A stretch of DNA of 64,000 nt from positions 152,051 to 216,050 of the forward strand of contig NW_015171584.1 in assembly GCF_001447785.1 (NCBI RefSeq), written 5' to 3'. A program made the translations under genes and the position numbers. The notes beneath the pieces are model-generated. The model searched no databases. It had not been told where the DNA came from and worked only from the letters and a program-made list of their open reading frames with translations. The stretch is from Gekko japonicus. Taxonomy: Eukaryota. Of this stretch, positions 2,471 through 61,613 are shown one piece after another. The first letter of the stretch is position 1; each line of letters opens with the position of its first letter.

Positions 2471-2629
2471 CAACGGTGTAGACTTTCCAATTTCCCGGGG
2501 GGGGCTGGGGCTGGGCCAGAGGCATTGCTTTGCTAGGAGCAAGGGTGGCTCCCGGGGGAGGCTGAACACTTTCCTGAAAATTTCGGCGGGGGCTGATGCC
2601 CCGCCGCCCCCACGAAGATTACGCCTATG
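2471..2629. mobile_element. Short hAT-type MITE, 159 bp
   Basis: 8-bp TSD TCTAGGAG (2463-2470, 2630-2637); imperfect TIR; absent from the paralogous duplicated segment (~9710). A partial second copy lies at ~62060-62130. Confidence 0.85.
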
Positions 2630-2835
2630 TCTAGGAGGGCAGTGAAAGTGCATTTCTGCTTATTTGGTACAGGTGCTTGATGCTGGTCACCATTTCTTTC
2701 CATTTCCTTTTGTATTATAATAACCTAGAGACTAATTATGTTGGGATTTTCTTTACACTATTAATCTTCACAAAATCTGGCTTGGTTTCTTGACACTGAT
2801 AGAAAACACAGAGTGAGCAATATTCTACTATCTAA

Positions 2836-2871
2836 TAAATAAATAAATAAATAAATATAAATAAATAAATA
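2836..2871. repeat. (TAAA)n microsatellite
   Basis: Read directly; absent in the paralogous copy at ~9905. Confidence 0.9.
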
Positions 2872-5800: not shown

Positions 5801-5924
5801 AAGAATTTCCCTTTATGTGCAGGGAGTGAAAGAACACAGAAACATAGACAGCAATAAGAACAAACTTATTGCATTTCCATTGATAGATATGTCATTTTCA
5901 TTCCAAAAAGGGTAGTGATATATA

Positions 5925-6881
5925 TCAAGTCATACAGTGTGTAAATCTCTTCAAGCAGTTTCTTCCAGCCTCCCTGACTTCCTTATTTCTTAGGCTGTAT
6001 ATCAGGGGATTGACCACTGGAGTCAAGATTGTGTAGAAGAGAGAGAAGACTTTCTTCATTTCTCTTAGGTTTCGGGATCTTGGTACCATGTAAACAAGCA
6101 TGATTGATCCATAATACAAGGCAACCACAGTGAGGTGAGAGGAACAGGTGGAGAAAGCCTTTCTCCTCCCAATGGTAGATGCGATTCTAAGGATAGACAC
6201 AATGATGAAAATGTAGGAGGAAAGGGTGAGGAGAAAGGGAGGCAGGGTGAACGCAATAGCACATATGAAAGATGAAAGTTCAAATAAATGGGTGTCACTA
6301 CAGGAGATGTATCTAATGTCAGAACTAATATCACAAAAATAATTGTCTATTTCATTAGGGCCACAGAAGGATAACCAGGATATTTTTAAAGTCAAGCTTG
6401 TACTGACTAAGACTCCGCTGACCCAAGACATGGCTACAAGCTGGAAACACAACCTGCCATTCATAAGAGTAGCATAATGGAGTGGTTTACATATTGCTAA
6501 ATACCTGTCATAAGACATCATGGAGAGGAGGTAGCATTCAGTACCTCCCAGGCATGTGACAATGAAAAATTGTATGAAACAGGCTTTGACAGATATGCTT
6601 CTTTCCCCCATCCAGAGGTTTAGCAACATTTTAGGCAGGATGGTGGAACTATAGAAAATTTCCAAGAAGGACAAGTTTCCCAAGAAGAAGTACATGGGGG
6701 TGTGAAGGTGCTGGACAGTCACAACCAGCACAAAAATGAGGAGGTTCCCAGCCATGGTGGCCAAATAGATCACGAAGAAGAGCAGGAAGAGAAGAATCTG
6801 CACTCTAGGGAGACCTCCAAATCCCAACAGGATAAATTCAGACACTGTTGTTTGATTTTTCTGTTCTCTATTTCCCATCAT
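5925..6881 (-). CDS. Olfactory receptor, class II (family 6/10/11-like), intact, ~318 aa (OR-A)
   Basis: OR motifs [52 protein letters not shown] and an N-terminal N-glycosylation site (NQT). Start placed at ATG 6881 because the upstream part of the ORF reads as a polypyrimidine/AG splice acceptor. Confidence 0.96.
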   Translation of the reverse strand: MMGNREQKNQTTVSEFILLGFGGLPRVQILLFLLFFVIYLATMAGNLLIFVLVVTVQHLHTPMYFFLGNLSFLEIFYSSTILPKMLLNLWMGERSISVKACFIQFFIVTCLGGTECYLLSMMSYDRYLAICKPLHYATLMNGRLCFQLVAMSWVSGVLVSTSLTLKISWLSFCGPNEIDNYFCDISSDIRYISCSDTHLFELSSFICAIAFTLPPFLLTLSSYIFIIVSILRIASTIGRRKAFSTCSSHLTVVALYYGSIMLVYMVPRSRNLREMKKVFSLFYTILTPVVNPLIYSLRNKEVREAGRNCLKRFTHCMT

Positions 6882-8281
6882 CTGCTCCTTGAGGAAACAA
6901 AGCACAACACTTAATACAGTGCAGAACGAAAAGGGTGACAAGTCATTTGACAGCATGTTGCAATCAAAAGAAACTCTCTACAAAGGCATGCCCATACAAC
7001 TTTGTTTAGGCTGTAACCCAACCATAATGTCACCAAGCAGTATATAGAAGGTGGCTATCATTCCTATAAACCAGAGACTACTTATCACTTAGTCACGATA
7101 TTGGAGCTAGGGTTGCTTTAGGTATTGAGGTATAGAGATGGATGAAGAATGACTCTGACCCTAGAAGCAGTGGGGAACTCATATACTTTACTGCAATTGT
7201 TGGGGCTTTAAGGACAAATCCCCTGAATTTTGTAAATTTTCCCACACATTTGATCAAATTTTACTGCAAGAGACTTGGGCTACAGATGAAATTTTTGTCC
7301 ATGTTTTCCCAGAATGTCTATCCCTGCTAGCAAAGATTCCTCTGTAGGTAGACCACAAGCTGCTATCTAATGTTTGATCTCCACTACCTTAGAGGCAAAA
7401 TAGTCTCAGAACCCCCATGGCCCTCATCTTGGCTGCTAAATTTTTGTTGCTTATTATTGTAATATATGTTCTATCATCTCCCAATGTGATGGTACTGGGT
7501 GTTAGCTGGAGTAAACTGGAAACCCTTTGGTTTAAAGAATTAAAACAGCCATGATATTCACTTTCTCTCTAATAAAATATTAACCATTTATCAGTTATAA
7601 TTTTATTTGAATGTCTTACATAGAGTTTAAAATATAAAATAATGCATTTTGATACTGAACCCAACATGTGTGATAGTTAAATAAGACTATTAGTGGAATC
7701 CTAGGTACAGTTTTGGGGGTGTCAGCCTCATGGAATAGACCTGAGTGGAATTCTTAGCAGGATAGGATGCATAGGATAGGTTTCTGAGCTTCTCTGGATT
7801 TCATATTATAAAAACAGGCAACTGAATTAGAGAAGAACACAAGCATTGGATTTTTATTTTACACAATGGCCTTAGACCCATCTGAACTTTAGGTGAAACA
7901 GTGCTACAACTTGTCCCAGATACTTCCAGAAGTAGTTTTTAAAAATCTTGCACCATTTTTTCTTGACAGTATTTTCCCCTTCATTTATACTGTACACATA
8001 CTCCAAAATGCATTTTTCATATTGGATGTGCCCAACCCTTCTAGTTCAGTTCATTTCCCTTCTGTAGATTCAACCTCCATGTCTCAATGTGCTGCTTCTT
8101 ACACGTTAATATCTACTACTGGAAATACTGAATTAATTCCCCAATTGTGAAATACTGGCCTGATACCTATAATTTTCTTACCTTGACCCATTTAGCATCT
8201 TTCTATAGAGTCCTTTATATCTTGGGGTAACTGAGCTTCCAGAATGGCAAGTTCTGAGACTCTGTTACAACACTACCTCTC

Positions 8282-8533
8282 TATAGCTTTAAATTAATTA
8301 TAAAATCAAATTGAAATAGTAAATGATAGAGTTAGAAAATAGATATCTGTTTTAAAAGTTAGATAAGATGGAATGCTGGAAAAGATAGAACAGATATCTT
8401 AACAGAAGTGAAATATTCTAAGTAAATATGAGTAAATTCCTTATAAATATATTAATGGAATATAAATGGTAATAGTTTATATGTTTGTGTGTTTTGTATG
8501 TTTGTAAATGGAAACAAAATTATAAATAAAAAA
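8282..8533 (+). mobile_element. AT-rich LINE (L1/Tx1-like) 3' fragment with AATAAA-polyA
   Basis: Present in only one copy of the duplication; flanked by an imperfect direct repeat ACTAC(C/T)TCTC. Confidence 0.6.
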
Positions 8534-9537
8534 ACTACTACTTCTCCTTGCAAATTGGTTGTCTAAGTATGCTTTATCTGGATCACAGTCAGTGTATGGT
8601 GCAAAATTACTATAATCAGAGATATTTAATCAGTCATTGTATAATAGTTCAATATCAAAATTGCACAAATTAATCATTGTATAATTCCTTAGAATGAGAA
8701 ACATTGAACTCTAGGATGCGTCTATGTATCTGGCATTGAGGAAGAATTCACAGACAAGGTTCTCCAACCAAACACTGGTTTTGAGCAGAGTTCTTTGCAC
8801 ATTTCAGACACTAAGTGCAATCTTTCCACCATCACCTTTTATCTGCAAAAGCACCTAGCTTGGTGGTAGCAAAGGAGGATAAAACCATCACACATCAGTG
8901 TGTGAAGCCCTACTGAAATCCATATCATCCCATATGAATCCTGGGAAATAAAACAATGTGGGTACTTCCCTTTCCCCCAACATACAGGATACTCAGAATT
9001 ATTGATGCAGATGTAATATTGTATGTAGGTCATCGCTGGAAGAAAAGCAAATATGTAACATAATTAATCACGCCTCTTTCTTCTTCTTTCATTTTTTCCT
9101 TCTCTACCCTTGGATTCTACCCTAACAAGTCCTTACCTTTCTTTGCTCCTTCCCAGCAGTTCTATTTCCTTAATACTAAGGTTTACAAGAATCCATGAAA
9201 CATGTCTGTCTCTGTAGAATTATTTGTATTCTATATTAAGGTAGAACATGTCCCTTGACATTTCTAGACAAAGATGAGGCACTGAAGAAATTAAGGTTTA
9301 CATAAGGGAGTGAGGCCTTAGTTACACAACAAAAATAAGCTTTTCAGTTCTCAGCAATCCAGGAAATCACAAGGAAATGTTTGAAAATCTGTCTCTTTCT
9401 TGTTCCTTATCTGGTTTCTCTATTTTCCCCCCTTCATTCGACCAACCTATTATTAACTACCATCATACTTTATCTCTTCCCTATGCATATCACTTATATG
9501 CACTGGGTACATTTTAGGATGTATGCTTGGTAATATT

Positions 9538-9592
<55 letters not shown>
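9538..9592. repeat. (GA)n microsatellite
   Basis: Expanded relative to the paralogous site at 2326-2340. Confidence 0.95.
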
Positions 9593-9597
<5 letters not shown>

Positions 9598-10302
9598 GAT
9601 CATTCCATATTCTAGTTTAAATCTGTAATCATATAGAGCAGAAGAGTTTCAGTAATTGCTCTGGAAATGTGGAATAGCCTTCCCAAAAATCCACTTGATG
9701 ACATCCCTCTAGGAGGAAAGGGCATTTCTGTTTATTTGATATAGGTGCTTGATACTAGTCACCATAGCTTTCCATTTGCTTTTGTAATCTAATAACCTGG
9801 AGGCTAATTATATTGGGGTTTTCTTTACACTACTAATTTTCACAAAATCTGGTATGGTTTCTTGAAGCTGATAGAAAGCAGGGAGTGAGCAATATCCTAC
9901 TATCTATGTCCAGAAGGCACACAGAGTTTTCCAGTGTTACTCTGCATTGCTGCGAGTGCTTCCAATCTCTGACAAGAAAATTCCTGGGGTCACAAGCTCA
10001 GTGCAAGAATCAGCCATGAGATTTGGTGGGATGGAGTGAAGAGGGACAAGGGGAGGGAATTCCCCCCTCCCTTAGCATAAGGGGATGGAAGAGTAATGTC
10101 AGCTTCTGGTCCATACTCACTTTGCTCCCCTCTACTGTCAAAGCTGTTTCTACATGTGGGGTCAAGATCCTAGGAATGATAATTTTAGAAGTTATCTATG
10201 CAAAGAAATGTGGGGAAAGCAACACCTTCTGCAAACAGAGTAGTAGGATACTCCCCGATATATGAAACATTCATTGCTTTGAAGCTAGATACACAAATAT
10301 AT

Positions 10303-10608
10303 TTTGTGTAGTTTGTGTAGTACAGTTTGGTTAAGTGCACAGACTCTAATCTGGGAGAGTCAGTTTTGATTCCCCACTCCTCCACTTGCACCTGCTGGAT
10401 GACCTTGGGCAAGCCATAGTTCTGTCAGAGCTGTCCTTGAAAGAGCAGTTCTTGGAAAAGCTCTCTCTGCCCCACCTACCTCACAGGGTGTCTGTTGAGG
10501 GGAGGGGAAGGGAAAGGAGTTTGTAAGTCACTCTGAGACTCCGAGTGAAAGACGTAGAATAAATCCAATCTCCTCCTCCTCCTTCTCTTCTTCTTCCTCT
10601 TCTTCTTC
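10303..10608 (+). mobile_element. tRNA-derived SINE (Squam3-like)
   Basis: GGTTAAGTG..GACTCTAATCTGGGAGA..TTTGATTCCCCACTCC head; CTT tail; absent in the paralogous duplicated segment. Confidence 0.85.
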
Positions 10609-13600
10609 CAGAGTTCGAACTTCATTTCTTCCCCCAAATCCCAATGCTAATAAAACTATGAAAGGAAGCGAGACCACAGCATGGCTCACATTAGTTTTAT
10701 TTGAATAATTGATCTATGTCAGAATTATTATATATGCTAACATATTTAAAGGGCAGGATGAGCCAGGCAGCCCAACCATGGATTCCTTTGTTGGGCAGAT
10801 CCACCCCAGCTTCAGATTTGCCCAGAAGCTTTCACCATCCTTGTTTATCCTTCCCTTCATATAAAATGTGCTGAGAGGCACAAACCCCAATCCTGATGTA
10901 TTGTAAGGCTGCTGCCAGATTTGGAAAGATACCACTCAGCACCAGGAAGCTCCTTCCTAAACCCAACACAGCCTAAGGCCTGTGATGGGTTGTTCTAGAC
11001 ACCTAATGCTTCAGGGTGCTTGCCATTAATCCCTATTTATCATGAGCAACTCACCTTATCCTCACCACCTTAGTTATGACCTCAACAGTAGAGCGCTAGT
11101 CCTATTTAATATATCACCCTCCTCTAGTGAAATTAACAAAGCAGAGGGAAAGGGCTCCCGCATAGCCAATCAGAAAAACCCTCAAATTTCCTGCTTGGCT
11201 CCACAATTGGTGACTGACTAATCCCACAATACCAGCAGGAAAGGTGGTTGAGTCAGCAGCAGGTGGAAGAAACTTGCCTGAAATGAGCAAGGGATACTGA
11301 TATATCCCCCAGATTGCACCTTCCTATTGGCTGTCTTTGTTTTAGCTCACCAATTTTGCCTTTTATCATTTGATAAAGAAGGGACTGAGGCAAACAGATC
11401 AAAAACCATAACTCCATGAGTGCCCCTTCAATGAAAACATGGAATTGCCCATTGGATATGATATTCTTAACTATTCGACTTTCCCCAATAATTCCTTCAG
11501 ATGAGTGAAATTTGGAGTGATGGATTCCCAATCCTCCTCAGCTCATTAACATGATCCTGCAGCTTCAATCAAGAATTAACTGCAGATTTAGGGTCTGAAG
11601 ATTTCCAAATGGTTTCAGGGTAGAAAATGAGAATGTGAATCAAAGACTGCAGCCTGTTTCTACATGGAGTTGAATGGTCAATGGCTATTCTTTTAATATG
11701 CTTAGTATCAAGGTGAGCAATTAATGCTCTCACTTGACCCCATGAAATGATTGCAAAGCACTTTACAGATAAAACAATTTCAACTGTTGCAACCTGAATT
11801 CTTGAGGAGAAGCAGGGTAATAAAGTCAAAATATTAGATGATTTGAATGATTGGCTGGATTTGTTACTGAGATAGTTGAATGTCAATAAACTGAAACTGA
11901 ATACAGATATGATGAAGGTACTCTCAATTAAAAGCTTTCTGGGTCATGGTCATGTTCATCCTATAGCCTCTCCCTTCCCCATGTCTTCTCTATCTCAAGG
12001 TTCTCCAGCATAGCAAACTATGTCAATCTATCTTTGGTATCTTAAGTCAGAGTCCCTCAGTTAAAGCACACATTACCCAGGAGCTGTCAAAAGGAAGTAG
12101 CTTAGCTGCCATGAGAGCTCATGGGCACATGAATCAAAGTTATTTTTATGTGGTCCTCCAAAAGCTCCTCACATCCTGGCAATGAAAAATGTCCCGTGTT
12201 ACCAGGACAATTATCTACCCTCTCTGAATCTCCCTTACAAAGTATGCTTCACTGGAAAATCTAATCAAGGGCTCAGGAAGGGCTATCTGCCCATCTAACC
12301 ATGATCAGCTAGGATATGGACTACTCTGATAAATCAATTGGTTGCAACTGGACCAATCTCCCCTTCTTGTTATACCATGCCTTACACCATCTAGATGCTA
12401 TCATTTATTCATTTATTTATTCAGTTTCTGAATGTGGGTTACAAGGTTGATTCAAGACAATAAAACTATGAGGGACTTAATATATACTAATAAAATATAT
12501 ACTAATATATACTAATAAAAAGCAATTTCTTCAACCCAACCCATAAACTGATTTAGTTATTTTCCCATTCATTCATAACAAAACCTGTGTAAAGAAATTC
12601 ATCTTGCAGAGCCTCCAAAAGACCAATGAAGCAGAGGATTTTCTGACAAGTTCAGGAAGATCATTTCACAAAGCAGGGGCTACTACAGTGAATGATCTGT
12701 AATTGCCTGTAGGGTTTTCCCAGCCTGTCACTTGCAGCCCCTGGGAATTACCATACCCAGATGTGAGGACTGGGAAATATCATCAAAGAGAAGAGATGGA
12801 TAGACATAGATGTAGCAGGCAACAGTATGCATTTTCATTGTTCTGGTACTCAGTGTCTAAAGATCTCTGTAGTTTTACTATGCATGCTTAGTCAATACTA
12901 CTTACTTGCCAGCTGCTCCACTACTGTACCTTAACACAGTAGTGAAAGGGGGTCCCAAAGTGAAAGGTGGAATGGGAGAATAGTGGGCTCTGTTCATCTC
13001 ATGCATGCACACCTGCTTGATCTATGTTCTAACAGGAAATGCTCTGGCTGACTGAAAGCAGCCTGTCTAGTACTGGGACTTGTCCAAAATTACTGTGGCA
13101 TATACATGAATTATCATAATTTACAGTCTCACAGTGGTGACAGCAAGGAGGCATGCAAAGTTTCCCTAAATCTAGAAATTGTAGGAATGTTTCCCTAACA
13201 TTAGTATGCAGTGCTGGAAAACCAGATAGGGGTTTTGTTAGGCACTCACCACAGTAGTATCCTATAATTTCTGCTGCAATCAGTTTGTACTCTTGGGAGT
13301 AAATAATGTAGAATAAACTCAGAAATCACATGAAAGCACTGAGATGCTGGTCGCCTTCTTGCCACACAAACGAAGCTCAGGGAAGCTCAGGATAGCGCAG
13401 AATCTCTGTCTTACGCAGCATTAGGAAGAAGAAGTTAAGGCTTGATTTCCCCCCATCTTCCCATCCCCCTAGCAATCCCTGTGGCCACACCCAAAAGTGG
13501 ATACTGTGGGAAGGGGAGCCATGTGAAGAAAATGCCATATATCATAGAAGGCTACAATAAGGAACCGGAACTTAATGAAATCACCATGAGTGGAAAGCTC

Positions 13601-14304
13601 ATACTGTAATTGCTGTTTATGAAAGAGTTGTTTTAAGTTATGCATTCTATCCAACCAGCTTGTCCCATGATGGAAAAAGGAGATCAACACACACACACAT
13701 GGCTATGTGTAGACTTGCATAGATATTTCTAGATTGACTGATTTATTCAGTTGATAGTCTCCATTTCCTGATGAAAGACTAGGCAGATTACAAAATTTAA
13801 CAATGCAAAAGAACCAGTATAAGACATGTAATAAACATGGGTATAAGGGTGGATTACAAAGTTAGAAAACAATGCCATTATTGACTTTGGATGCCCTGTG
13901 GATGGTGACATTGCCAGGGCACTCTTAATTAATTGCTTCCCAATGTAAGTATGCACTTCTGCCTAGCTGCATTGAGGCTGGCCCTGCATTCTATTCATAG
14001 ATGGGTACAGAAGAGAAAATTGGGCAAAAGGGCAGGTCCAATAGATATCTTAAAACATTGTCATTGATGTGGATTCACTTATATTACTACACTTCTATGT
14101 AACTGTGACAACCAAATGATATTGTGGTCAGTCTACTATTCTATCTCCATTTTCAAGCAATCACATTATGCACAGAGATATGCCTAAGCAGTCATTCATC
14201 ATCAGTGCCTCATTATACAGAGTTACTCTAGACTGAGTCCATTGAAGTCAAAGGTCTTGGACTAGCGTCTCTGCATAGAACTGCAGTGTTATACAATTTT
14301 CACT

Positions 14305-15282
14305 TTAAAATGGATGTGGGAAATGCCACGCTGTCAGATACCCTGAAAAAGTTCTCAACTTCCTTCTCAAGGCTTCTTTCACTTCCATGTTTCGTAGGCT
14401 GTATATGAGGGGATTGACCATGGGGGTCAACACTGTGTAGAAGAGAGAGAAGACCTTCTTTGCTTCCCTTAGGTTTTTGGATCTTGGTAGCAGATAGACA
14501 AGCATCAATGTTCCATAATATAAGGCAACCACTGTGAGGTGAGAGGAGCAGGTGGAGAAAGCCTTTTGCCTCCCAGTGGTGGATGGAATCCTGAGGATAG
14601 AAACTATGATGGAAATGTAAGATGACAGGGTGAGTAGAAAGGGAGGCAGAGTGAACACACAAGTAAATATGAATGCTGACAGTTCAAATGAAGTTGTGTC
14701 GCTACATGAGAGATACCTTATGTCAGGAATAACATCACAAAAATAGTGATCAATCACATTGGGGCCACAGAAGGATAGCCATGATATTTTCAAAGTCAAA
14801 CTTGTGCTAACCAAAAGTCCACTCACCCAAGACACAGCTGCTAGTTGGAAACTCAACCTACTATTCATTAGAACTGCATAATGAAGTGGTTTACAGATTG
14901 CTAAATACCTGTCATAAGACATCATGGAGAGAAGGTAGCATTCAGTCCCTCCCAGGCAAGCAAAGATGAAAAATTGTACGAAACAAGAGCTGAAAGATAT
15001 TTTTTTTTCCCCAGTCAAAAGGCTTGACAACATCGTAGGCAGGACTGTGGAGCTACATAAGGATTCCAAGAAGGACAGATTTCCCAAGAAGAAGTACATG
15101 GGGGTATGAAGGTGTCGATCAGCCGCAACTAACACAATAATGAGAATATTAGTCGCCATAGTTACCAAGTAGATCAGTAAGAATAGCAGGAAGAGAGGAA
15201 TCTGCAGCTTTGGAAGATCTCCAAATCCCAAGAGTATGAATTCGGAAACAGTTGTATGGTTTGGCTGTACATTCTTGGCCAT
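14305..15282 (-). CDS. Olfactory receptor, class II, intact, ~325 aa (OR-B; paralog of OR-A and OR-C)
   Basis: All canonical OR motifs present. ATG at 15282 (MAKNVQPNHT) follows the acceptor ttttttctAG. Confidence 0.96.
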   Translation of the reverse strand: MAKNVQPNHTTVSEFILLGFGDLPKLQIPLFLLFLLIYLVTMATNILIIVLVAADRHLHTPMYFFLGNLSFLESLCSSTVLPTMLSSLLTGEKKISFSSCFVQFFIFACLGGTECYLLSMMSYDRYLAICKPLHYAVLMNSRLSFQLAAVSWVSGLLVSTSLTLKISWLSFCGPNVIDHYFCDVIPDIRYLSCSDTTSFELSAFIFTCVFTLPPFLLTLSSYISIIVSILRIPSTTGRQKAFSTCSSHLTVVALYYGTLMLVYLLPRSKNLREAKKVFSLFYTVLTPMVNPLIYSLRNMEVKEALRRKLRTFSGYLTAWHFPHPF

Positions 15283-17838: not shown

Positions 17839-18036
17839 TCCGCAAAGTCCCGCCCCTCAAAGTTCCTTCTCTCACACACACACCCCTCAGTGACCAAGTC
17901 TCAAGCCACCTTCTGGAATGGGGAGCTGGCAAAGTCCCCCAGGCATGAGCCGTGGGTCTTCTCCCTTTCTCCACCCTACCTCCCTGGGTTGGTGAAGTCC
18001 CTCACCTCAGAGGTCCTTCTCTCTCTCTTGCCCCTC

Positions 18037-18420
18037 GGTGAGCAGCCCTGGCGACCCAGTGAGCACAACATCGAGCGACGGAGTCCGGCAAAGGCAGAGT
18101 CGTGGCAGCGCGGCAGAGCCAGCAGGACGTGAGCCGGAGCTGCAGCTGGCGCGGAGCCGCGCACCAGGATGGGCCTGCCAGAAGAAGCTGCTGGACTGAA
18201 AAAGACCTGTTCCAAGGCGCCAGGAGGTGGAACGCCAACACCCAAAACCCGCTTGAAGGAGCCAGATAACAACAAGCCCTGCTGCCTGGGAGCCGGTAGG
18301 CAGTCACTTCCCTATATAATGTGGCCCTAGATAGGAAATTGAAATTGGATGTAAACCGTTCAGAGACCCTTCAGGGTTAGGGCGGTATATAAACTGAATG
18401 TTAAATAAATAAATAAATAA
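18037..18420 (+). mobile_element. Chimeric SINE-like element, 5'-truncated
   Basis: Shares GCGGCAGAGCCAG(C/A)AGGACGTG with ~56897 and TTCCCTATA..ATGTGGCCCTAGA with ~37462; L2-type tail and (TAAA)n. Confidence 0.65.
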
Positions 18421-20544
18421 ACCTTCTTCTGAGGCGGGGAGCTGGCAAAGTCTCCTGGGCATGGATTGTGGGCCTTCTGCCCTTTTGCACCCTGCCTCCC
18501 TGGGTTGGTGAAGTCTCTCCCCTCAGACTTCCTTCTCTCTCTCTCACCCCTCAGCAACCAAGTCTCAAACCACCTTCTGGTGTGGGGAACTGGCAGAGTC
18601 CCCTGGAGCGGCAGGTGCCGGGGGAGTGAATACACCACCACCCCGCATCCCCAGGCTCCGTCCTCCTCTCGGCCAGCTGCTCCTCTCCACCTACCTTTGC
18701 TTTCCATGTTCCTCTCTGGAGCTGCCTGAAGCCGAGGTTCCCGCTGGACTGCCAGAGCCTGAAGGGCAGCAAGGCTCCGAAGGGGGAAGCGGAGGGACGG
18801 GGTGAGACGGACGAGGCTTTCCCAGCAAGAAGTGTCCAGAGGTGGAGCTGCCCAAGTCCCGGCTGGGAGCGACCCTGCTCAGCTTCGGAAGAGGGCAGGG
18901 CAGGGCAGGGCAGGGCAGGGCTTGGCTGGCTTTGCTAAAAAGACTGGGGGAGCAAGACACCACTGCCCCCAAGAGAGGAAGCCTCTGGCCAGTCCCGCAG
19001 GGGGAGCCAGCCTCCCCTCCTCTGCCCCACCAGCTGGGGCACCTCAACTCCTCCCACTCACTCCAGCAAGTGCAGTCCTTGGTTCTCTGTCCCTTTCGAT
19101 GGCTGCTAGCTTGGAGAAATAAAGATCTGTGGGGAGGGGGGGGGGCGCCACAAGCTAGCCTCACCTAGTGCACAAAAAAACTTTGGGCCGGCCCTGCCTG
19201 CAGCAGCCATCTTCTCACATTTCTGTCACTTGTGGCAGCCATTTTGTACTTGTATCCAACACCCTTTATCAAAATTCCAAAGTTGCCCAGGTGCTCAAAA
19301 AGGCTGAGAACCCCTGAGATAGATGAACCATGGGTTGGATTCTGCCAGCATTTCTGCTTGTGAGAAAGGAAGGGAAGGTCCCCTTTTACCACTATAAAAA
19401 TTGTGCACGTGGAGGATTGGGCACGTGTGTACAAAAGTCATGTGAGATAGACATGAAAATAAGGAGGAGAACTGGGCAAAGTTGACTACAAAAACTGCCT
19501 TGATCCAACTGTGTGTAATTCCACTGTTCTGGCAGCTACTTATATTGTTGATTTGTTTCCATGAAAAATTTGAAACGGTCCTTTTAGGTCTAAAACAGGG
19601 GATCTGAGGGACCACCTCCCTTATGAGCCTAGCCCAAGTTGAAGTACTGGTCCCCTGCTATGCATGCAAATATTAACATGGGTGAGACTAGCAGGCAGTG
19701 GACTATGCAGCTGGTGGACTATGGAGTTCCTTGCCTCATGAGGCTGATCATTCAACCATTGCTCTGGCCTTCTGGAGACACATAGCAACTACTTTTTTTC
19801 TGGAGGTTGTCCGATGTTTATCCCTTCTGCTGTGATCCTTTTAAAACCAATGTACTGGGTTTTGTTGGACTACTTTTTTACAATGCCTAATTGCTGTTTT
19901 CACAAATGTTTCTGTGCTCGGCTTCCTTTATGCTAGTTTCATTTCATTTTGTTTGTTTCATTTTCATTTGTAGAAAATCTTGAATACTAGTTTACTGTGC
20001 AATCCTAAGTAGAGTTACACCATCTAAGTCAATTCAAGGCAATGGCCTAAGAAGGGATTAACTAGAATCGTACCATTAGTGACAGAAAGGTGCGGTTGAA
20101 TTTTTCTGAATAAATAAATGTTAGGACAAAATCTGAAAACTGGATATTCCCAGAACAGAACATGCTAAACCACACATAGACATTCCCAATGGCAGTTAGG
20201 AGTTTGAGTGTTGGCTTGTAAAATGCAAGGTGAAATTTACTAGCGGCTGTAAGTATACTGCTAGTGTTCTCTCTGAGTTGGATCCAATGTCTACCTTCCT
20301 TTCAGTTAAGAAGTTTCCAGCAGAAGCAGCATTTCTCTGAGAGAAGGAGACTCCCTCTTTTTGGAGAAGTTCCTTCACCTATGGGTTCCAACCCCCATAA
20401 GAAAGTTGATGTGAGAGAATCGAAGTAGAAAGATTATCTTAGGTAAAGGTGACTTTTGATTACACAACATTTTAATGTAAGTTTTTTATTTTTTAAATTC
20501 CCATTATATTTTTGCCTCAAGGGCTCAAAGTAGCATGTGAAAGG

Positions 20545-21887: not shown

Positions 21888-23195
21888 TTAATGTGGATTG
21901 CCCTCTTTCAGTTTCAAAAAGCCAACTTTTTGAATGCTCATGAAGAACAGTAATTTCCTGAAAACTTTGTTAACAGCTATCTTCACTTCTTTGTTTCTCA
22001 GGCTGTATATGAGGGGGTTAAGCATTGGAGTCAGGATAGTATAGGAAATAGAAAAGGTTTTCTTGATATGTCTTAGGTTTCTGGACCTTGGTAGCAGATA
22101 GACAAGCATCAAGGTTCCATAATACAAGGCAACAACAGAAAGATGAGAAGAACAAGTGGAGAAGGCCTTTTGCCTCCCAGTGGTGGAGGGAATTCTGAGG
22201 ATAGCGAGTATAATGAAACCATAAGATGATATGGTGAGGACAAAGGGAGGGAGCGTGAAAATGCAAGCAAATACAAAGGACGAGAGTTCAACTAAATATG
22301 TGCTACTGCATGAGATATATCTTATGTCAGGAACAACGTCACAAAAAAAGTGATCAATTTCATTAGGGCCACAGAATGATAATTGTGATATATTCAAAGT
22401 CAAGCTTGTGCTGACCAAAATTCCACTGACCCAAGACACAACTGCTAGCTGGAAGCTCAACCTCGCATTCATGATAGTAGCATAATGGAGTGGTTTACAT
22501 ATTGCCAAATACCCAGGGGTCTTGTTGTAGAAAAAGAGCTGCCGGAGCTCATTAGCATAACTCATTAGCATAACTTATTTGCATATGCCACGCCCCCTGA
22601 CATCACCGGAAGTGACAGAAGGCCACACCCCCTGACATCACCGGAAGTGTGTCAGAAGGCCTGGCTACTTACCCTCCTGCTTCATCCTCATTCCCAAACG
22701 GAATGAGGATCAAAGCAGAGGGCGGGGTAAAGAAGGGGGCGGGGCTTCACCACGTGACAGCCCCGCCCCCTAGAGGTTCTCTTCCGGAGCTCCGTACCTG
22801 AGAGCTCCCCCCCGACTAGAGCCCTGCAAATACCTGTCACACAACATCATGGAGAGGAGGTAGCATTCAGTACCTCCAAGGCAAGCATAGATGAAAAATT
22901 GTATGAGGCAGGCTTTGACAGATATACTCCTTTCCCCTGTCAAGAGGCTTGACAAGATCTTAGGCACAATGGTAGAGCTGCAGCAGATTTCCAGGAAGGA
23001 GAGATTTCCCAGGAAGAAGTACATAGGGGTGTGGAGGTGTTTATCAGTCACAACTAGCACGACAATGAGGAGGTTTCCAGCCATGGTTATCAGGTAGATC
23101 ACAAAGAACAGCAGGAAGAGAAGAACTTGCAAATTTGGGAGATCTCCAAATCCAAGGAGTATGAATTCAGAAACAGCTGATTGATTCTGCCACAT
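21888..23195 (-). pseudogene. Olfactory receptor pseudogene (OR-C) interrupted just after the DRY motif by a hAT MITE
   Basis: ORFs 22770-23216 (N-half) and 21888-22571 (C-half) are in the same frame. Removing 22514-22826 plus one TSD copy (321 bp) restores a ~328-aa OR. The insert carries an in-frame TAG at 22770-22772. MSYDRY has become MLCDRY. Confidence 0.93.
22514..22826. mobile_element. Non-autonomous hAT element (MITE), 313 bp, inserted in OR-C
   Basis: CAGGG...CCCTG termini; perfect 8-bp TSD CAAATACC at 22506-22513 and 22827-22834. Confidence 0.92.
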
Positions 23196-29133: not shown

Positions 29134-30120
29134 CTAGTGAGTCATTGTGCACTGAAGATGGGTTCTATGGATTCTTCTGTAGGACGACAGTTTGCTCAAG
29201 GCCTTTCTAACAGCCTCTTTGAATTCTCTGTTTCTCAGGCTGTATATGAAGGGATTGATCATGGGAGTCAGGATAGTGTAGAAAACGGAGAAGACTTTGT
29301 TCAGATCCTTCATTGCCTTTGGCTTGGGCAATACGTACACAATGATGAGGCTTCCATAGAAAATAGAGACCACAATAAGATGAGAGGAACAAGTAGAAAA
29401 GGCTTTGCCCCTGCCACTGTTGGAAGGAATTCTCAAAATGGTGATGATGATGCACACATATGAGGCCAGTGTGAACAACAATGGTGGCACTGCGCATGCA
29501 GAGCCCAAGACAGTCATCAGCATTTCTGTCTGCCAAGTGTCACTGCATGAGAGCATTAACAATGGTGCATAGTCACAGAAGAAATGGTCAATTTCATTGG
29601 GGCCACAGTAGTTCAGCTGCGAAGGAAAGACTGTTGTAAACACACTAGCCACAATGCCGATCATCCATGAGGCAAGGCATAACTGAATACACTGTTTCTT
29701 GTTCATGAGGGTGACATAATGGAGTGGTCTGCATACAGCTACATATCGGTCATAAGACATTGCAGACAAAAGATAGCTCTCAGCTGCAGCCAAAAATGAA
29801 AAGCAATAGAACTGGAGGAAACATCCATTAAAAGAAACTCCATGGTAGTCACTTATAAAGCTGGCCAAAACCCTGGGAAGGATTGTTGAAGAGTAGCAGA
29901 TCTCTAAAAAAGATAAATTCCACAGAAAGAAGTACATTGGCTTGTGAAGGTGAGGATTAGCCAGAACTACTGAAGCTATAAGGATGTTTCCAGCCATTGT
30001 TACTATGTAGATCATGAAAAACACACCAAAGAGAAGATTCTGCTTTTCTGGGAAAGTCTTGAATCCTATGAGGACAAATTCTGTGACTCCTGTCCGGTTG
30101 TACCAGTCTGTTTTTGCCAT
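29134..30120 (-). CDS. Olfactory receptor, class II, intact, 328 aa (OR-D)
   Basis: LHKPMYFFLWNLS, MSYDRYVAVCRPLHY, KAFSTCSSHL, PMINPFIYSLRN and an NRT sequon. Confidence 0.97.
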   Translation of the reverse strand: MAKTDWYNRTGVTEFVLIGFKTFPEKQNLLFGVFFMIYIVTMAGNILIASVVLANPHLHKPMYFFLWNLSFLEICYSSTILPRVLASFISDYHGVSFNGCFLQFYCFSFLAAAESYLLSAMSYDRYVAVCRPLHYVTLMNKKQCIQLCLASWMIGIVASVFTTVFPSQLNYCGPNEIDHFFCDYAPLLMLSCSDTWQTEMLMTVLGSACAVPPLLFTLASYVCIIITILRIPSNSGRGKAFSTCSSHLIVVSIFYGSLIIVYVLPKPKAMKDLNKVFSVFYTILTPMINPFIYSLRNREFKEAVRKALSKLSSYRRIHRTHLQCTMTH

Positions 30121-36413: not shown

Positions 36414-36964
36414 GGATTCTGGGTGCTGTGAAGCCCACCACTTGCCTCTTAGATCTGTGCCTATCATGGCTGGTGAAAGCCAGTGGTGATGGAATACGAA
36501 TCCCCTGGTGGACATTATAAACCTGTCCCTGAATTTGGGGGGATCTACCCCAGAGGATTAAAGTAGGCTGTGGTGAGGCTGCTCTTGAAGAAACCATCTC
36601 TGGATTCAACTGATCTGTCCAATTATTTTCCCGTATTGCATCGTTCATTTCTGGGTAAGGAAGTTGAGAGAGTGGCAGTGGAACAGCTCCAGACTTTCCT
36701 GGAGGACACATTGGCTCTGGACCCATTTCAGTCTGCCTTCCACCCCAGCCAGATGCTGCCCCAGATATTTTGGCTGAAGGTTGGAGACTGTGGTTGGATG
36801 GCTGAAAAGGAGCCAGCTGAAATTAAACCTATCTAAGATGGAGGTTCTGTGACTGGGCTGGGGAGATTCCACATTAGAGTGCCAACTCTCAGCTCTTGAT
36901 GGTGTGTGTTTAATGGCAGCACTGGCTGTCAAGAGCCTGGGTGTGATTCTGAATGCTTCCCTGA

Positions 36965-37561
36965 ATGCGGTGGCACAGGCGGTAAGTGAAGCCTGCATTA
37001 ACATCTGGCTGAACAGCTCCAGCTGTTCGAGCCCCACCGTGGCCGGGGTGAGCTCTTGGCCCTATGTCCCAGCTCCCGCCCACCCAGTGGCCCAAAAGCC
37101 TATTAAAGGGCGAATAGAGTGGGGGAGCATCCGTCCCTTGTGTAGCGGCGGCAGCGGTGAACGATGAGCGGTGGTGGTGAAATATGGCGGCAGCTGGCTA
37201 GGCAAAAATCGAGCGAAGGAGGCTGGACCAACAAACACGGAGGCAGAGCGTCACAGCAGGCCGAAGCCTAGTCTGGACAGAGGCCACAGCGAGCATGTGC
37301 GGAAGTGTGAGTGGCCCAGGCCCAGAAAATGAATCGCAACAGCCGGAAAGCGCAACTTCAAAGACCAGCACCAAAGAGGACGCCGCTGGACTATCTTCCA
37401 CAAAAGAAAGATACCAACGAAGATCCGCTACAAAAAAGGGGTGCCTGGTAGGCTTGTCACTTTCCCTATATGTATGTGGCCCTAGACTAGGATGTGTATT
37501 AATTGAAACATGTAAGCCGCTCAGAGCCCTAAGGGGTGAGCGGGATACAAATTGAAGGAAA

Positions 37562-37612
<51 letters not shown>

Positions 37613-37613
37613 A
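36965..37613 (+). mobile_element. Chimeric SINE-like element, near full length (tRNA/Sauria-like head, GC-rich body, L2-type tail, (TAAA)n)
   Basis: A-box-like TGGCACAGGCGG (~36971) and B-box GTTCGAGCC (~37025); GGGGTGAGCTC..GTCCCAGCTCC segment; TGTAAGCCGCTCAGAG tail. Confidence 0.65.
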
Positions 37614-38389
37614 TGTGTCTAGGCTGGCATTTTCCCATTTATGACAGATTAGACAACTGGCCTTCCTCCTGTCCCTTCCTGACTTAGCCACAGTGATCTA
37701 TTCAAAGGAACCTCCAGATTAGATTACTGTAACTCACTCTTCGCAGGGCTACCCTTGAGGCTGACCCAGAAACTTCAACTGGTCCAGAATGTGACAGCAT
37801 GTGTTCTCTCAGGAACCCCATTTAGAGCCCATATCCAACTGGTGCTCTGCCAACTGCACTGGCTCTATGTCAAATATCAGATCAGGTTCAAGGTTTTGGC
37901 ACTAATCTTTAAGACCCTAAACAGTCTGGGACCAGCATATCTGCAGGATTGCCTCTTCTGGTATGTTCCATAAAGAGCATTACACTCAATGAATGACAAC
38001 CTACTAGTGATCCCTGGCCTGAGAAGCATCCAGCTGTCCTCAACCAGAACCAGGGCTTTTTTGACCTTGGCCCCGACAAGGTGGAACTCTTTGCTGAGTG
38101 AGATCCAGGCCCTGCAAGACAGCTTATGGATGGACAATGACGGTTTCCATCAAGACTGACTTCCCTTTCCTCTCTCCCTTTCCTCTCCCTCTTTGTCCCC
38201 CTGTCCCTTCCCTCCCCTCTCCTACCCTTATTTGTTATTCCTTATTTAATTTCTACAATATTACTTCCCTCTGAATAAGGGGCACTAGGCTGTGCTTCCT
38301 TTTTATACATCATTGTATTCATTGTTAGTAGTGTTGTTAAGAACTTTTAATTCTAATTTGTTATTATTTTATTCTAATTGCTTGTTATC

Positions 38390-42253: not shown

Positions 42254-43312
42254 CTAAGGATGCCAGGAGTCCCTATTTATTTCCTGTGGGTGGACTACTG
42301 GCATTCTAATTGATTTATTTATAAAGGTCCGCTTCTGTGTAAAAAAAATATTGGTTTCATGAATTCTATTAGAAGACAGAAGTTTAGCCATAGTCTTTCT
42401 AACAGCCTCTTTAAACTCCCTGTTTCTCAGTGTATATATAAAGGGATTGATCATGGGAGTCAGGATTGTGTAGAAAACAGAGAAGACTTTGTTCAAATCC
42501 CGCAGTTCCTTGGTCTTTGGTAATATGTACACAATGATGAGGGTTCCATAGAAAAGGGAGACCACAATAAGATGAGAGGAACAAGTAGAAAAGGCTTTGC
42601 CCCTGCCACTGTTGGAAGGAATTCTCAAAATGGTGATGATGATGCATACGTATGAGGCCAGTGTGAACAACAGTGGTGGCAGTGTGCATGCGGAGCCCAA
42701 GACAGTCATCACTGTTTCTGTCTGCTGAGTGTCACTGCAGGAGAGCATTAACAACGGTGTATAATCACAGAAGAAATGGTCGATTTCATTGGGGCCACAG
42801 TAGTTCAGCTGGGAAGCAAAGAATGTTGTGAACGCACTAGCTACAATGCCAATCATCCATGAAGCGATTAACAGTTGAACACACAGCTTGGTATTCATGA
42901 GGGTTACGTAATAGAGTGGTTTGCATATAGCCACGTATCGGTCATAAGACATCACAGAGAAGAGGTAGCTCTCAGCTGCAGCCAAAAAAGCAAAGAAATA
43001 AAACTGAATGAAACATCCATTAAAAGAAATCCCATGATAGTCATTTATAAAGCTGGCCAAAATCCTAGGAAGGACTGTTGAAGTGTAGCAAGTCTCTAAA
43101 AGGGATAAGTTGGCCAGAAAGAAGTACATTGGTTTGTGAAGGTGGGGTTTAGCCAGAACTACGGAAGCTATAAGGATGTTCCCAGCCATTGTTACCAGGT
43201 AAATTGTGGAAAACATGCCAAGGAGGAGATGCTGCTGTTCTGGAAGAGTCTTGAATCCTATGAGGACAAATTCTGTGACTCTTGTCTGATTGTACCAAGG
43301 TGTCTCTGCCAT
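42254..43312 (-). CDS. Olfactory receptor, class II, intact, ~352 aa with long C-tail (OR-E; paralog of OR-D)
   Basis: Canonical motifs. ATG at 43312 (MAETPWYNQT) aligns with the OR-D start, and an upstream acceptor AG lies at 43338-43339. Confidence 0.95.
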   Translation of the reverse strand: MAETPWYNQTRVTEFVLIGFKTLPEQQHLLLGMFSTIYLVTMAGNILIASVVLAKPHLHKPMYFFLANLSLLETCYTSTVLPRILASFINDYHGISFNGCFIQFYFFAFLAAAESYLFSVMSYDRYVAICKPLYYVTLMNTKLCVQLLIASWMIGIVASAFTTFFASQLNYCGPNEIDHFFCDYTPLLMLSCSDTQQTETVMTVLGSACTLPPLLFTLASYVCIIITILRIPSNSGRGKAFSTCSSHLIVVSLFYGTLIIVYILPKTKELRDLNKVFSVFYTILTPMINPFIYTLRNREFKEAVRKTMAKLLSSNRIHETNIFFTQKRTFINKSIRMPVVHPQEINRDSWHP

Positions 43313-54460: not shown

Positions 54461-55414
54461 CTAACCTAGCCAAGTCTTACGTTTGCACAGGATTCTCCTC
54501 CAGGCTTCCTTCACCTCTTTGTTCCTCAGGCTGTATATAAGGGGGTTAACGAGGGGTGTCAGGACTGTGTAGAAAACAGAGAATACTTTGTTTAGCTCTT
54601 TCAGCATTTCTGTTTTGGGTAGGACATAGACAATAATGATTGTCCCATAGAAAACTGAAATAACCAGAAGGTGAGAAGAGCAAGTAGAAAAGGCCTTTTT
54701 CCGTCCAGTCTTTGAGGGAATTCTCAGAATGGCCATAATGATGTTAACATACGATGCTATGGTGAACATGAATGATGGGAAAGTGCAGACAGATCCCAGA
54801 ACTGTTAATGCAAGCTGTGCCTTGTAGGTGTCAGTACAGGAAAGCTGTATGATTGGTGTATAATCACAAAAGAAATGCTCTATTTCATTGTGGCCACAGA
54901 ATGTTAACTGAAACACAAAGACTATCAGTACTGCATTTTCCACAAAGCCACAAAACCAAGAGGCAGCCACCAGGAATAGGCAAACCTGTTTATTCATAAT
55001 AGTTAGATAGTGCAGGGGTTTGCATATTGCAACATAGCGATCATAAGACATTGCTGAAAAGAGATAGCATTCTGTTGCTACCAAAGACCCAAAGACCCAA
55101 AATTGCATAATGCAGGTATAAACAGGAATGGCCCTGTTCCCAGTCATGAAACTAGCCAGCATTCTAGGCCAAATGGTTGAAGTGTAACAGACCTCCAAGA
55201 AAGAGAGATTCCCCAGAAAGAAGTACATGGAGGTGTGAAGGTGTGGATCAGTCACAACAAGGACAATTATGAGGATGTTCCCAGCCATGGTCATGACATA
55301 AATGATGAGGAGCAGGAAGAAGAGCAGAATCTGCAGGAATTCCTGAAGATCTCCAAATCCCAGAAGCACAAATTCTCTTATGATTGTTTGATTTTCCCAC
55401 TGTAGCTCCATCAT
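54461..55414 (-). CDS. Olfactory receptor, class II, intact, 317 aa (OR-F)
   Basis: [50 protein letters not shown] and an NQT sequon. Confidence 0.97.
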   Translation of the reverse strand: MMELQWENQTIIREFVLLGFGDLQEFLQILLFFLLLIIYVMTMAGNILIIVLVVTDPHLHTSMYFFLGNLSFLEVCYTSTIWPRMLASFMTGNRAIPVYTCIMQFWVFGSLVATECYLFSAMSYDRYVAICKPLHYLTIMNKQVCLFLVAASWFCGFVENAVLIVFVFQLTFCGHNEIEHFFCDYTPIIQLSCTDTYKAQLALTVLGSVCTFPSFMFTIASYVNIIMAILRIPSKTGRKKAFSTCSSHLLVISVFYGTIIIVYVLPKTEMLKELNKVFSVFYTVLTPLVNPLIYSLRNKEVKEAWRRILCKRKTWLG

Positions 55415-56589: not shown

Positions 56590-57182
56590 GATAAGCCCAC
56601 CCAGCGGCTCGAAAGCTAAATGTAATCTTAATGCGAGTAGACAAATGGGTACCTACCCTTAGAAGGGTAGGGGGCACCCTCCTCCAGCGAGGTGTGTGGA
56701 AGGTGGCGGCAATGGCGGCGGCGGCGGACATCGGCTGCAGCAAAAGTGTTCTGGCGGTGAAGGCGGTGTGGCGCGATGTGGCAGCGGCGGCAGCAGCAGC
56801 GGGGCCGGAGGAGCGATCCCTGGTGGCCAGCGGTAACATCGGGCAGCTGTTGTCGGCGAGGCAGAGGCGGAGGCACGTGATGAGGTCATCAACAGGTGCG
56901 GCAGAGCCAGAAGGACGTGGCCGAGGCCAGAAGAGGCCACATCGTGCGCCGGCCCGCCTGAGCGCCAGAGGAGGAACAACTAGCCGAACGAACCACCGGG
57001 AAGAGAGCTGAGCCAGGACCGCCTCCACCAGGGTGCCGGTAGGCAGCCCCATCCCCACATACAATGTGCCCCAAGTTAGGGAACAATGTGCTTAGCACCC
57101 CACTCTGTAAAACCGCCCAGAGACCCCCTACCAAGGGGTTAGGGCAGTATAGGAAATCGAAAGTTAAATAAAATAAATAAAT

Positions 57183-57240
<58 letters not shown>
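56590..57240 (+). mobile_element. Chimeric SINE-like element, 5'-truncated
   Basis: Sauria-like CCCAGCGGCTCGAAAGC...ATGCGAGTAGACAAATGGGTACC; GC-rich body; GCCGGTAGGC motif; L2-type tail; (TAAA)/(GAAA)n. Confidence 0.65.
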
Positions 57241-59642: not shown

Positions 59643-59790
59643 AAAAGGTAAAGGTAAAGGTTCCCTTGCTCGAAAGCCAGTCGAATCCGACTCTAGGGTT
59701 GCGGTGCTCATCTCCGTTTCAAAGCCGAAGAGCCAGCACTGTCCGAAGACGTTTCCGTGGTCATGTGGCCGGCGTGAATAAATGCCAAGC
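59643..59790 (-). mobile_element. Sauria SINE (Squam1) 3' portion
   Basis: (ACCTTT)n tail and BovB-like 3' end (GTCATGTGGCCGGC, CTCATCTCCGTT, CGACTCTAGGG on the plus strand). Confidence 0.8.
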
Positions 59791-60569: not shown

Positions 60570-61613
60570 TTAAGATTCAGTGTAACGATCTTTCTTAATC
60601 TTATGGTCAGATTCAAATTCAAATGTACTAGTACGGTCGAAGACCAGCATAAATAAATGAACTCTCAGTCTTATGTAATTTTTACATTTTCTTGTAGTTC
60701 TCTTCAAGGCCTTCTTTACTTCTTTGTTTCTCAGGCTATATATGAGGGGGTTGATCAGAGGTGTCTGGATAGTGTAAAAAAACAGAGAGGATTTTGTTCA
60801 GCTGTCTGAGTTCCTTGGTATCTGGCAACAAATACACAATGATGAGGGTACCATAGAAAATGGTCACCACAGTGAGGTGAGAAGAGCAAGTAGAGAATGC
60901 CTTTTGCCTGCCTGTGGTAGATGGGATTCCCAGAATGGCAGAAATGATATATACATATGATGTTATAGTTAAAACAAATGGGGGCAAGGTACAGAGGGCA
61001 GACAGGGTAGCTGATAAAAGTTCTACCTGATGTGAGTTATTGCAGGTTGGTTTCATCATGGGAGTGAAATCACAAAAGAAATGCTTAATCACATTGTCAC
61101 CACAGAAGGTTAACTGCAGTATGAACATCAACAGGATGGTATTCACCCCAAAACTGCTAATCCTAGACCCAGCCACAAGCTGCAGACAAATGTTGACGTT
61201 CATTAGAGCAGAATAATGCAGGGGTCTACAAATGGCTACATAGCGATCATAAGACATAGCAGCCAGGAGGTAGCATTCTGTTGCTGCCAAGAAACCAAAA
61301 GCCCCAAACTGCACCATGCAACCAACAACAGGAACACTTTGGTTCTCAGTTAAGAAACTGGCCAGCATTCTGGGGAGGATGGTTGAGGAGTAACAAGTTT
61401 CCAAACAGGACAGGTTGCTCAGGAAGAAGTACATGGGAGTGTGAAGGTTTTCATCAGCTACGACTAGGTCAAGAATGAGAAGATTCCCAGTCATAGTCAT
61501 TAGATCACTAAAAACATCACAAAGAGAAGGATATGCATCTCCTGACGTTCTCCAAATCCAAGAAGAATGAATTCTGTGAAGACCGTTTCATTTCTCAGCC
61601 CTAGTTTTTGCAT
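60570..61613 (-). pseudogene. Olfactory receptor pseudogene (OR-G), two frameshifts
   Basis: Starts MQKLGLRNET at 61613. There is a ~4-nt deletion at ~61500 (LVI*/MTMTGN) and a +1 in an A7 run at ~60776-60782 before YT..TP..NP. The conserved TM4 SW is SR. Confidence 0.9.

What the first reader, a model, noticed from the sequence alone, without database searches (positions are those of the whole stretch)
36965..37613. Candidate undescribed chimeric SINE: Sauria-like tRNA head + CpG-rich body + L2-type tail (three divergent copies)
Seen: 18037-18420, 36965-37613 and 56590-57240 share a 3' module GCC(T)GGTAGGC...CCC.A.A..ATGTG.CCC.AG...TGTAA(A/G)CCG..CAGAG.CCC...GGG.....AAATAAA(TAAA)n. They also share body motifs (ATCG(A/G)GC in all three, GCGGCAGAGCCAG.AGGACGTG in two). 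The 36965 copy has Pol III A- and B-box-like motifs followed by GGGGTGAGCTC...GTCCCAGCTCC. The 56590 copy has TCGAAAGC...ATGCGAGTAGA.AAAT.GGTACC. From recall, both segments match the Sauria SINE head/middle region. Established: Sauria SINE normally ends in a BovB-type (ACCTTT)n tail, as at 59643. Here the tail is the L2 type also used by Squam3. The copies are CpG-rich (young-looking) yet very different from each other, implying several subfamilies. Inference: a SINE lineage that switched its partner LINE from BovB to L2.
Basis: partly seen in the sequence, partly recalled or inferred. Interest (0 to 1): 0.7.

Follow-up and report, generated by a model that had tools for sequence, protein, structure and literature searches.

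The report
Long lizard SINE with hypervariable body
These three repeats belong to a real family of about 650-base jumping elements in a lizard genome that share their front end with the known Sauria SINE, end like L2 LINEs and are likely copied by L2 enzymes, while their GC-rich middle differs across dozens of lineages; whether they descend from Sauria or are its sister is not settled.

Summary
Confirmed as a real family. Each window copy has hundreds of relatives in the genome, and each defines its own subfamily consensus (638, 648, 700 nt). All three begin with the same tRNA-like head with A and B boxes. A structured 85-nt domain follows, 74-85% like this genome's Sauria SINE. Then come a CpG-rich body and a 3' end whose last ~67 nt match an L2 LINE of the same genome. 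A head motif has 2,663 exact hits (reversed control 0). Of 90 such loci, 79 carry the L2-type end, and none has a Sauria/BovB end in its place. Whole units sit cleanly inside older LINEs and lack target-site duplications (3 of 45; Sauria 9 of 23). The odd trait is the body: about 50 lineages among 77 copies, barely alignable, CpG o/e 0.97, almost free of TTTT. A 'switch from BovB to L2' is not shown. No BovB remnant exists, and one paired position matches outgroup CORE SINEs rather than Sauria. Eight literature searches found no description; Repbase and Dfam could not be checked. Tail exchange in SINEs is known. This scan noted the family twice before.

The parts
36967..37614 (+). Near full-length copy, subfamily A
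   Evidence: 89% to the 638-nt consensus from 30 loci, positions 5-638
36971..37033 (+). tRNA-like head: A box 36971-36982, B box 37025-37033
   Evidence: Motifs located; box consensus recalled; no ARAGORN tRNA and no Rfam hit on the element
37045..37118 (+). Structured domain shared with Sauria SINE, CORE-like; this copy lacks 22 nt at its 3' end
   Evidence: 74-85% to the local Sauria consensus 91-174; covariation; motifs as in the SP6 CORE
37119..37438 (+). GC- and CpG-rich, T-poor hypervariable body
37439..37510 (+). Family-specific 3' module; starts with GGGTGCC, predicted to pair with GGCACCC at the end of the head
   Evidence: Conserved across subfamilies; pairing predicted, no compensatory change seen
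37511..37614 (+). L2-type terminal stem-loop and (TAAA)n tail (37559-37614)
   Evidence: 77% over 71 columns to an L2 3' end of this genome, E 2e-10; fold z -4.3
18037..18418 (+). 5'-truncated copy, subfamily B (consensus 257-648)
   Evidence: 88.8% to the 648-nt consensus
56595..57240 (+). 5'-truncated copy, subfamily C (consensus 116-700), tail ending in (GAAA)n at 57185-57240
   Evidence: 95% to the 700-nt consensus
36416..38120 (+). Older L2 ORF2 fragment interrupted by copy A (36416-36963 and 37618-38120)
   Evidence: tblastx to L2 loci on both sides, E 1e-30 to 1e-50
59644..59789 (-). 3' fragment of a true Sauria SINE (comparison, not part of the family)
   Evidence: 96.6% to the local Sauria consensus 208-353

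Best explanation
This is a multi-copy SINE family of about 650 bases with a tRNA-like head, a domain shared with Sauria SINE, a hypervariable CpG-rich body and an L2-like 3' end, likely transcribed by RNA polymerase III and likely copied by L2 LINE enzymes from dozens of separate source copies. Shown: copy number, fixed 5' start, head-tail linkage, insertion as one unit, similarity to the L2 end, lack of target-site duplications, and covarying stems in head and tail. Inferred: Pol III transcription (boxes; avoidance of TTTT), use of L2 reverse transcriptase, and that the body drifts freely because it is looped out between two conserved structured ends by a predicted 7-bp helix. Sauria and this family share an ancestor of head plus domain and differ by a 3' exchange whose direction is open.
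For: 554, 2,970 and 595 candidates for the three bodies, 40 scored each. One 5' start in 18, 11 and 22 of 30 loci for subfamilies A, B and C. 2,663 head-motif hits, control 0. 79 of 90 head loci carry the 3' module within 850 nt; 9 lack it and 2 run into gaps. 20 of 20 fetched tail hits are subfamily A with 5' ends from position 1 to 492. Units interrupt a BovB copy (1-nt overlap) and an L2 copy (5-nt overlap). L2 end match 77/72/71%, E 2e-10, 7e-4, 0.01. Terminal stem: 33 T-A and 17 C-G versus 4 other, among the 54 of 77 copies matched. TSD 3 of 45 (shuffled 1.9) versus Sauria 9 of 23 (shuffled 1.8), p 0.002; Squam3, an L2-tailed SINE, also rarely has TSDs (PMC7983390). TTTT runs 3 versus 24 in shuffles, AAAA runs 210, n 77. 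Head structure: 13 of 31 pairs change on both sides, score 0.208 versus 0.138.
Against: No Pol III transcript was shown. RNA reads lie on both strands and, per DNA depth, are no more frequent than on two unrelated flanking repeats (3.3e-4 versus 2.4e-4 and 4.7e-4, run X21 against X3). The L2 match is short and weak for subfamilies B and C, and only one L2 family was examined, whose copies looked old and broken. The closing helix has no compensatory change. The head structure was drawn by eye from these sequences, and part of it lies in the motif used to select them. The two TSD scripts used slightly different windows. Lineage counts depend on the threshold (20, 51, 63).
Confidence: 0.8

Rival explanations
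1. One reading: a Sauria SINE lost its BovB-dependent 3' half and gained a new body and an L2 tail.
For: Head and domain are homologous to Sauria. Tail exchange is documented (PMC5786205 passages). Sauria occurs across squamates (PMC13295347), while this family has no description in my searches.
Against: No BovB or Sauria 3' remnant. The two groups are reciprocally separate, and the new family is the more diverse (0.19, n 56, versus 0.08, n 15). The C-G pair at columns 90/141 matches outgroup CORE SINEs, while Sauria has T-A; this is one character only.
Confidence: 0.45
2. Reverse or sister direction: an L2-driven tRNA-CORE SINE is the older state, Sauria took its head and joined it to a BovB end, and this family continues the L2 line.
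For: The CORE SINEs in the supplement panel mostly carry L2-derived ends. The sea-urchin SP6 CORE shows the same two motifs, CCACCCAG and AAATGGGTACC, in the same order; TGGGTAC is in 79 of 90 loci. Head diversity is higher than in Sauria.
Against: No outgroup could be put on the tree. Higher diversity may reflect faster change of source copies. The tail looks like a current lizard L2 end and could be a recent capture. No other genome was searchable.
Confidence: 0.35
3. A non-autonomous deletion derivative of a LINE whose 5' UTR is the head plus CpG-island body, transcribed by Pol II.
For: The body resembles a CpG island (o/e 0.97). The subfamily A consensus has an open frame of about 100 codons. 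Many copies are 5'-truncated.
Against: None of 90 head loci shares a longer continuation. 12 long L2 loci and a consensus of 10 BovB copies show no such 5' end, though the L2 copies were themselves truncated. The frame is absent from B and C and is expected in T-poor DNA. A and B boxes are kept and TTTT is avoided.
Confidence: 0.08
4. Chance neighbours: separate Sauria, GC-rich and L2 insertions that co-occur only here.
For: The three window copies differ greatly in the body.
Against: Each has many full-length relatives with unrelated flanks, and whole units interrupt older LINEs.
Confidence: 0.01

Closest known systems
Sauria SINE / Squam1 (PMC13295347: part 1 of 7 and passages; PMC10702118: parts 1-2 of 5 and passages; local copies)
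   Same: tRNA-like head start and an 85-nt structured domain, 74-85% identical, with compensatory pairs.
   Different: Sauria is about 350 nt, ends in a BovB-like (ACCTTT)n tail and has TSDs. This family is 450-800 nt with another body, an L2 end and no TSDs.
Squam3 (PMC7983390: parts 1-2 of 4, supplement 2 whole, passages of other supplements)
   Same: tRNA head, L2-derived 3' end, (TAAA)n tail, rare TSDs.
   Different: 218-271 nt, with a different head and a MIR-type CORE fragment; no long body.
CORE SINEs with L2 ends such as SP6, Una1, Ther1/MIR (alignment in PMC7983390 supplement 2)
   Same: Two motifs identical to the SP6 CORE in the same order; L2 end.
   Different: About 30-45 nt inserted between the motifs; the CCTTGGGCAAG part is not recognisable; compared by eye only.
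Tail-exchanged SINEs such as ERE4B and WALLSI2 (PMC5786205, passages)
   Same: Shared 5' part with a different LINE-derived 3' end.
   Different: Those keep a remnant of the former LINE that shows the direction; none is found here.

Membership tests
SINE (SINEBase definition, PMC3531059 passages) | Under 1 kb, interspersed, at least 100 copies | tested here: met
   Median 664 nt, range 453-803; 2,663 head hits
SINE | Head from a Pol III RNA with A and B boxes | tested here: inconclusive
   Box-like motifs and a predicted acceptor-like stem are present; no ARAGORN or Rfam tRNA match; identity to a given tRNA not measured
SINE | Transcribed by Pol III | not testable with these tools
   Only indirect: TTTT avoidance; the RNA reads do not resolve it
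SINE | 3' end shared with a LINE of the same genome | tested here: met
   L2 end, 77%, E 2e-10 for subfamily A
Sauria SINE / Squam1 | Sauria head and central domain | tested here: met
Sauria SINE / Squam1 | BovB-like 3' end with (ACCTTT)n | tested here: not met
   None of 90 loci has it in place of the tail; no BovB match in the three consensuses
Sauria SINE / Squam1 | Target-site duplications | tested here: not met
   3 of 45 versus 9 of 23
Squam3 | Ther1-derived head and CORE fragment, 218-271 nt | tested here: not met
   Published consensuses read differ, compared by eye; length differs
Squam3 | L2-derived end, (TAAA)n | tested here: met
Squam2 | Match to the Squam2 consensus | not testable with these tools
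   Consensus not seen; the .rtf/.doc supplements are unreadable; the three squamate families are 190-350 nt long
CORE-SINE superfamily | CORE domain after the head | tested here: inconclusive
   Two exact motifs shared with SP6, seen by eye; no scored comparison run
MetaSINE | 66-bp Meta domain | tested here: inconclusive
   Bivalve Meta sequences in supplement part 1 of 4 share only a short AAATGGTAC-like word, by eye
Any Repbase, Dfam or SINEBase entry | Full-length match | not testable with these tools
   Libraries not available; the SINEBase supplement is unreadable

The most novel reading that the evidence does not exclude
The family is the surviving L2-driven sister of the Sauria SINE, so it shows the state before BovB capture. 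It spreads from 50 or more source lineages at once, each with a different CpG-island-like body that is looped out between two conserved RNA structures and evolves almost freely while keeping its CpGs and avoiding Pol III stop signals.
Probability: 0.3. Interest if true: 0.65.

Novelty: new variant of a known kind. Interest (0 to 1): 0.45.

Why it matters
It would be a fourth squamate SINE family besides Squam1-3 in the papers I read, of the order of 4,000-56,000 copies. Its median length of 664 nt is at the upper limit of SINEBase's 175 families (75-662 nt). With Sauria it forms a natural pair in one genome: same head, different LINE partner, different insertion signature. That makes partner specificity and the role of the CORE-like structure testable by swapping modules. 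Dozens of parallel source lineages with a hypervariable CpG-rich body depart from the usual few-master picture (recalled), and may seed CpG islands. It would be missed by repeat libraries built on one consensus.

Tried and rejected
Rfam scan of 7 loci: no match on the element, so no known ribozyme family. An HDV-like ribozyme fit by eye failed. ARAGORN found no tRNA in 6 loci. BovB 5' UTR as the source of the shared domain: no match. MetaSINE: no convincing match. The PF00078 search returned L1-like elements in the 30 loci fetched, not L2. Twelve long L2 loci were truncated and gave no 5' UTR. One pattern was mistyped and gave 0 hits; corrected, it gave 80 and showed another young ~720-nt subfamily. 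The run search listed no holder on record as RNA; raw RNA runs were laid but gave no evidence of independent transcription. The stretch 37439-37510 alone does not fold better than shuffles (z +1.0). The ORF in subfamily A was rejected as likely chance; it was not searched against protein libraries. Literature searches listed no description of this family.

Full report
Setting. The window holds seven open frames of over 200 codons that look like olfactory receptors (family recalled from motifs, not scanned). The genome carries Sauria SINEs and BovB, so it is a squamate; earlier scan notes call it a gecko (not tested here).

Observation. The quoted motifs are present, and the three 3' modules match each other. 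Searches of the own genome with each body gave 554, 2,970 and 595 candidates, 40 scored each. Thirty loci per search gave consensuses of 638 (A), 648 (B) and 700 nt (C). All three start at the same GGGAGCGGTGG end. Their first ~245 nt are 74-82% alike, the bodies differ, and the 3' ends match again. Only the 36967 copy is near complete; the other two are 5'-truncated. The ATCG(A/G)GC motif is coincidental.

One mobile unit. A 28-nt head pattern has 2,663 exact hits and the reversed control has none. I fetched 90 of the first 91 hits listed, leaving out one at a contig end. Of these, 79 carry the 3' module within 850 nt, 9 lack it and 2 run into gaps. The 9 share no alternative tail. BovB 3' pieces follow two loci: one is an insertion into a BovB copy that continues on the other side, the other has BovB on one side only. 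Another copy splits an L2, and window copy A also interrupts an old L2 ORF2. All 20 tail hits fetched, of 40 listed, are subfamily A with varied 5' truncation. In 40 stretches of 10 kb (387,568 bases, fixed positions in large contigs, not strictly random) I found 3 family copies and 12 Sauria head matches, which gives roughly 19,000 copies, range 4,000-56,000.

Head. Positions ~81-170 match the local Sauria consensus 91-174 at 74-85%. A structure of six helices, drawn by eye, was counted on 29 family and 6 Sauria sequences. 90.6% of cells pair, 13 of 31 pairs change on both sides (8 of 500 shuffles reach this), and the score is 0.208 against 0.138 for shuffles and at most 0.085 for slid controls. 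It includes a pseudoknot pair that is C-G in the family and T-A in Sauria. The count is biased by relatedness and by motif selection. RNAalifold recovers two of the six helices and proposes an alternative pairing of the B box. The published sea-urchin SP6 CORE has the same two motifs in the same order and the C-G state (PMC7983390 supplement 2). This agrees with an earlier unreviewed note, but my comparison is by eye.

Tail. A consensus of 30 L2 loci ends in the same stem-loop and (TAAA)n. The last ~67 nt match at 77% (A, E 2e-10), 72% (B, 7e-4) and 71% (C, 0.01). The stem folds better than shuffles in the three window copies (z -4.3, -2.7, -2.0) and covaries (33 T-A, 17 C-G, 4 other). A consensus of 10 BovB copies matches none of the three consensuses. 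Target-site duplications of 6 nt or more occur in 3 of 45 full-length copies, as by chance, against 9 of 23 Sauria copies (p 0.002). This fits L2 mobilisation, as reported for Squam3.

Body. Among 77 complete copies the bodies form 51 clusters at 80% (20 at 75%, 63 at 85%). Random pairs match at 0.64 against 0.58 for shuffles. Yet the top-ranked copies lie only 3-4% from their own consensus outside CpG sites and 12-16% at CpG sites. So many source copies were active recently, and they differ widely. CpG o/e is 0.97 against 0.28 in the genome sample, T is 11%, and TTTT occurs 3 times against 24 expected. A 7-bp helix between the end of the head and the start of the 3' module is predicted to close the body, without compensatory change.

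Expression. RNA reads from three raw-read runs cover head, body and tail, mostly from other subfamilies. They lie on both strands and are no more frequent per DNA depth than flanking repeats, so passive read-through explains them as well.

Direction. No BovB remnant exists. Family heads are more diverse than Sauria heads (0.19, n 56; 0.08, n 15; 0.34 between) and separate on an unrooted tree. One pair matches outgroup CORE SINEs rather than Sauria. I give 0.45 to Sauria first, 0.35 to L2 first or sister, and the rest to more complex exchange.

What is known. Squam1-3 are 190-350 nt (PMC10702118); Squam3 has another head. Tail exchange is established (PMC5786205). Eight searches listed no description. 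Repbase, Dfam, SINEBase files, several supplements and most subscription papers were not visible. Two earlier scan findings describe this same family and are not independent support.

Verdict. A real and apparently undescribed SINE family of a known modular kind. Its distinctive traits are its length, its many parallel lineages and its hypervariable CpG-rich body. Interest 0.45.

Noticed in passing
window 5925-6956 (+), 14305-15282 (+), 21888-22571 (-), 29134-30120 (-), 42254-43312 (-), 54461-55414 (-), 60736-61500 (-): Cluster of olfactory-receptor-like open frames (family recalled from motifs).
   Followed up: no
window 17845-18036 and 18436-18603: Copy B sits inside a short tandem array of ~90-117-nt units.
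   Followed up: no
window 863-6864 versus 7771-15268: Long duplicated blocks at about 80% identity, consistent with tandem gene duplication.
   Followed up: no
L268-L292 (for example L290:1375-2100): A further young ~720-nt subfamily, 80 motif hits, already split into variants; several copies have assembly gaps in the body.
   Followed up: partly
L258-L267: Very young full-length BovB family with intact 1,051-codon frames and (CAA)n ends; it shares only 17 nt with the local Sauria 3' end.
   Followed up: partly
L173-L185: Near-identical L1-like copies with open frames up to 1,247 codons.
   Followed up: no
L278, L114: Tandem duplications of part or all of a family copy, as in SINE-derived satellites.
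   Followed up: no
L216 downstream of the head: A head-only copy is followed by sequence that looks like an LTR-element integrase fragment (recalled).
   Followed up: no
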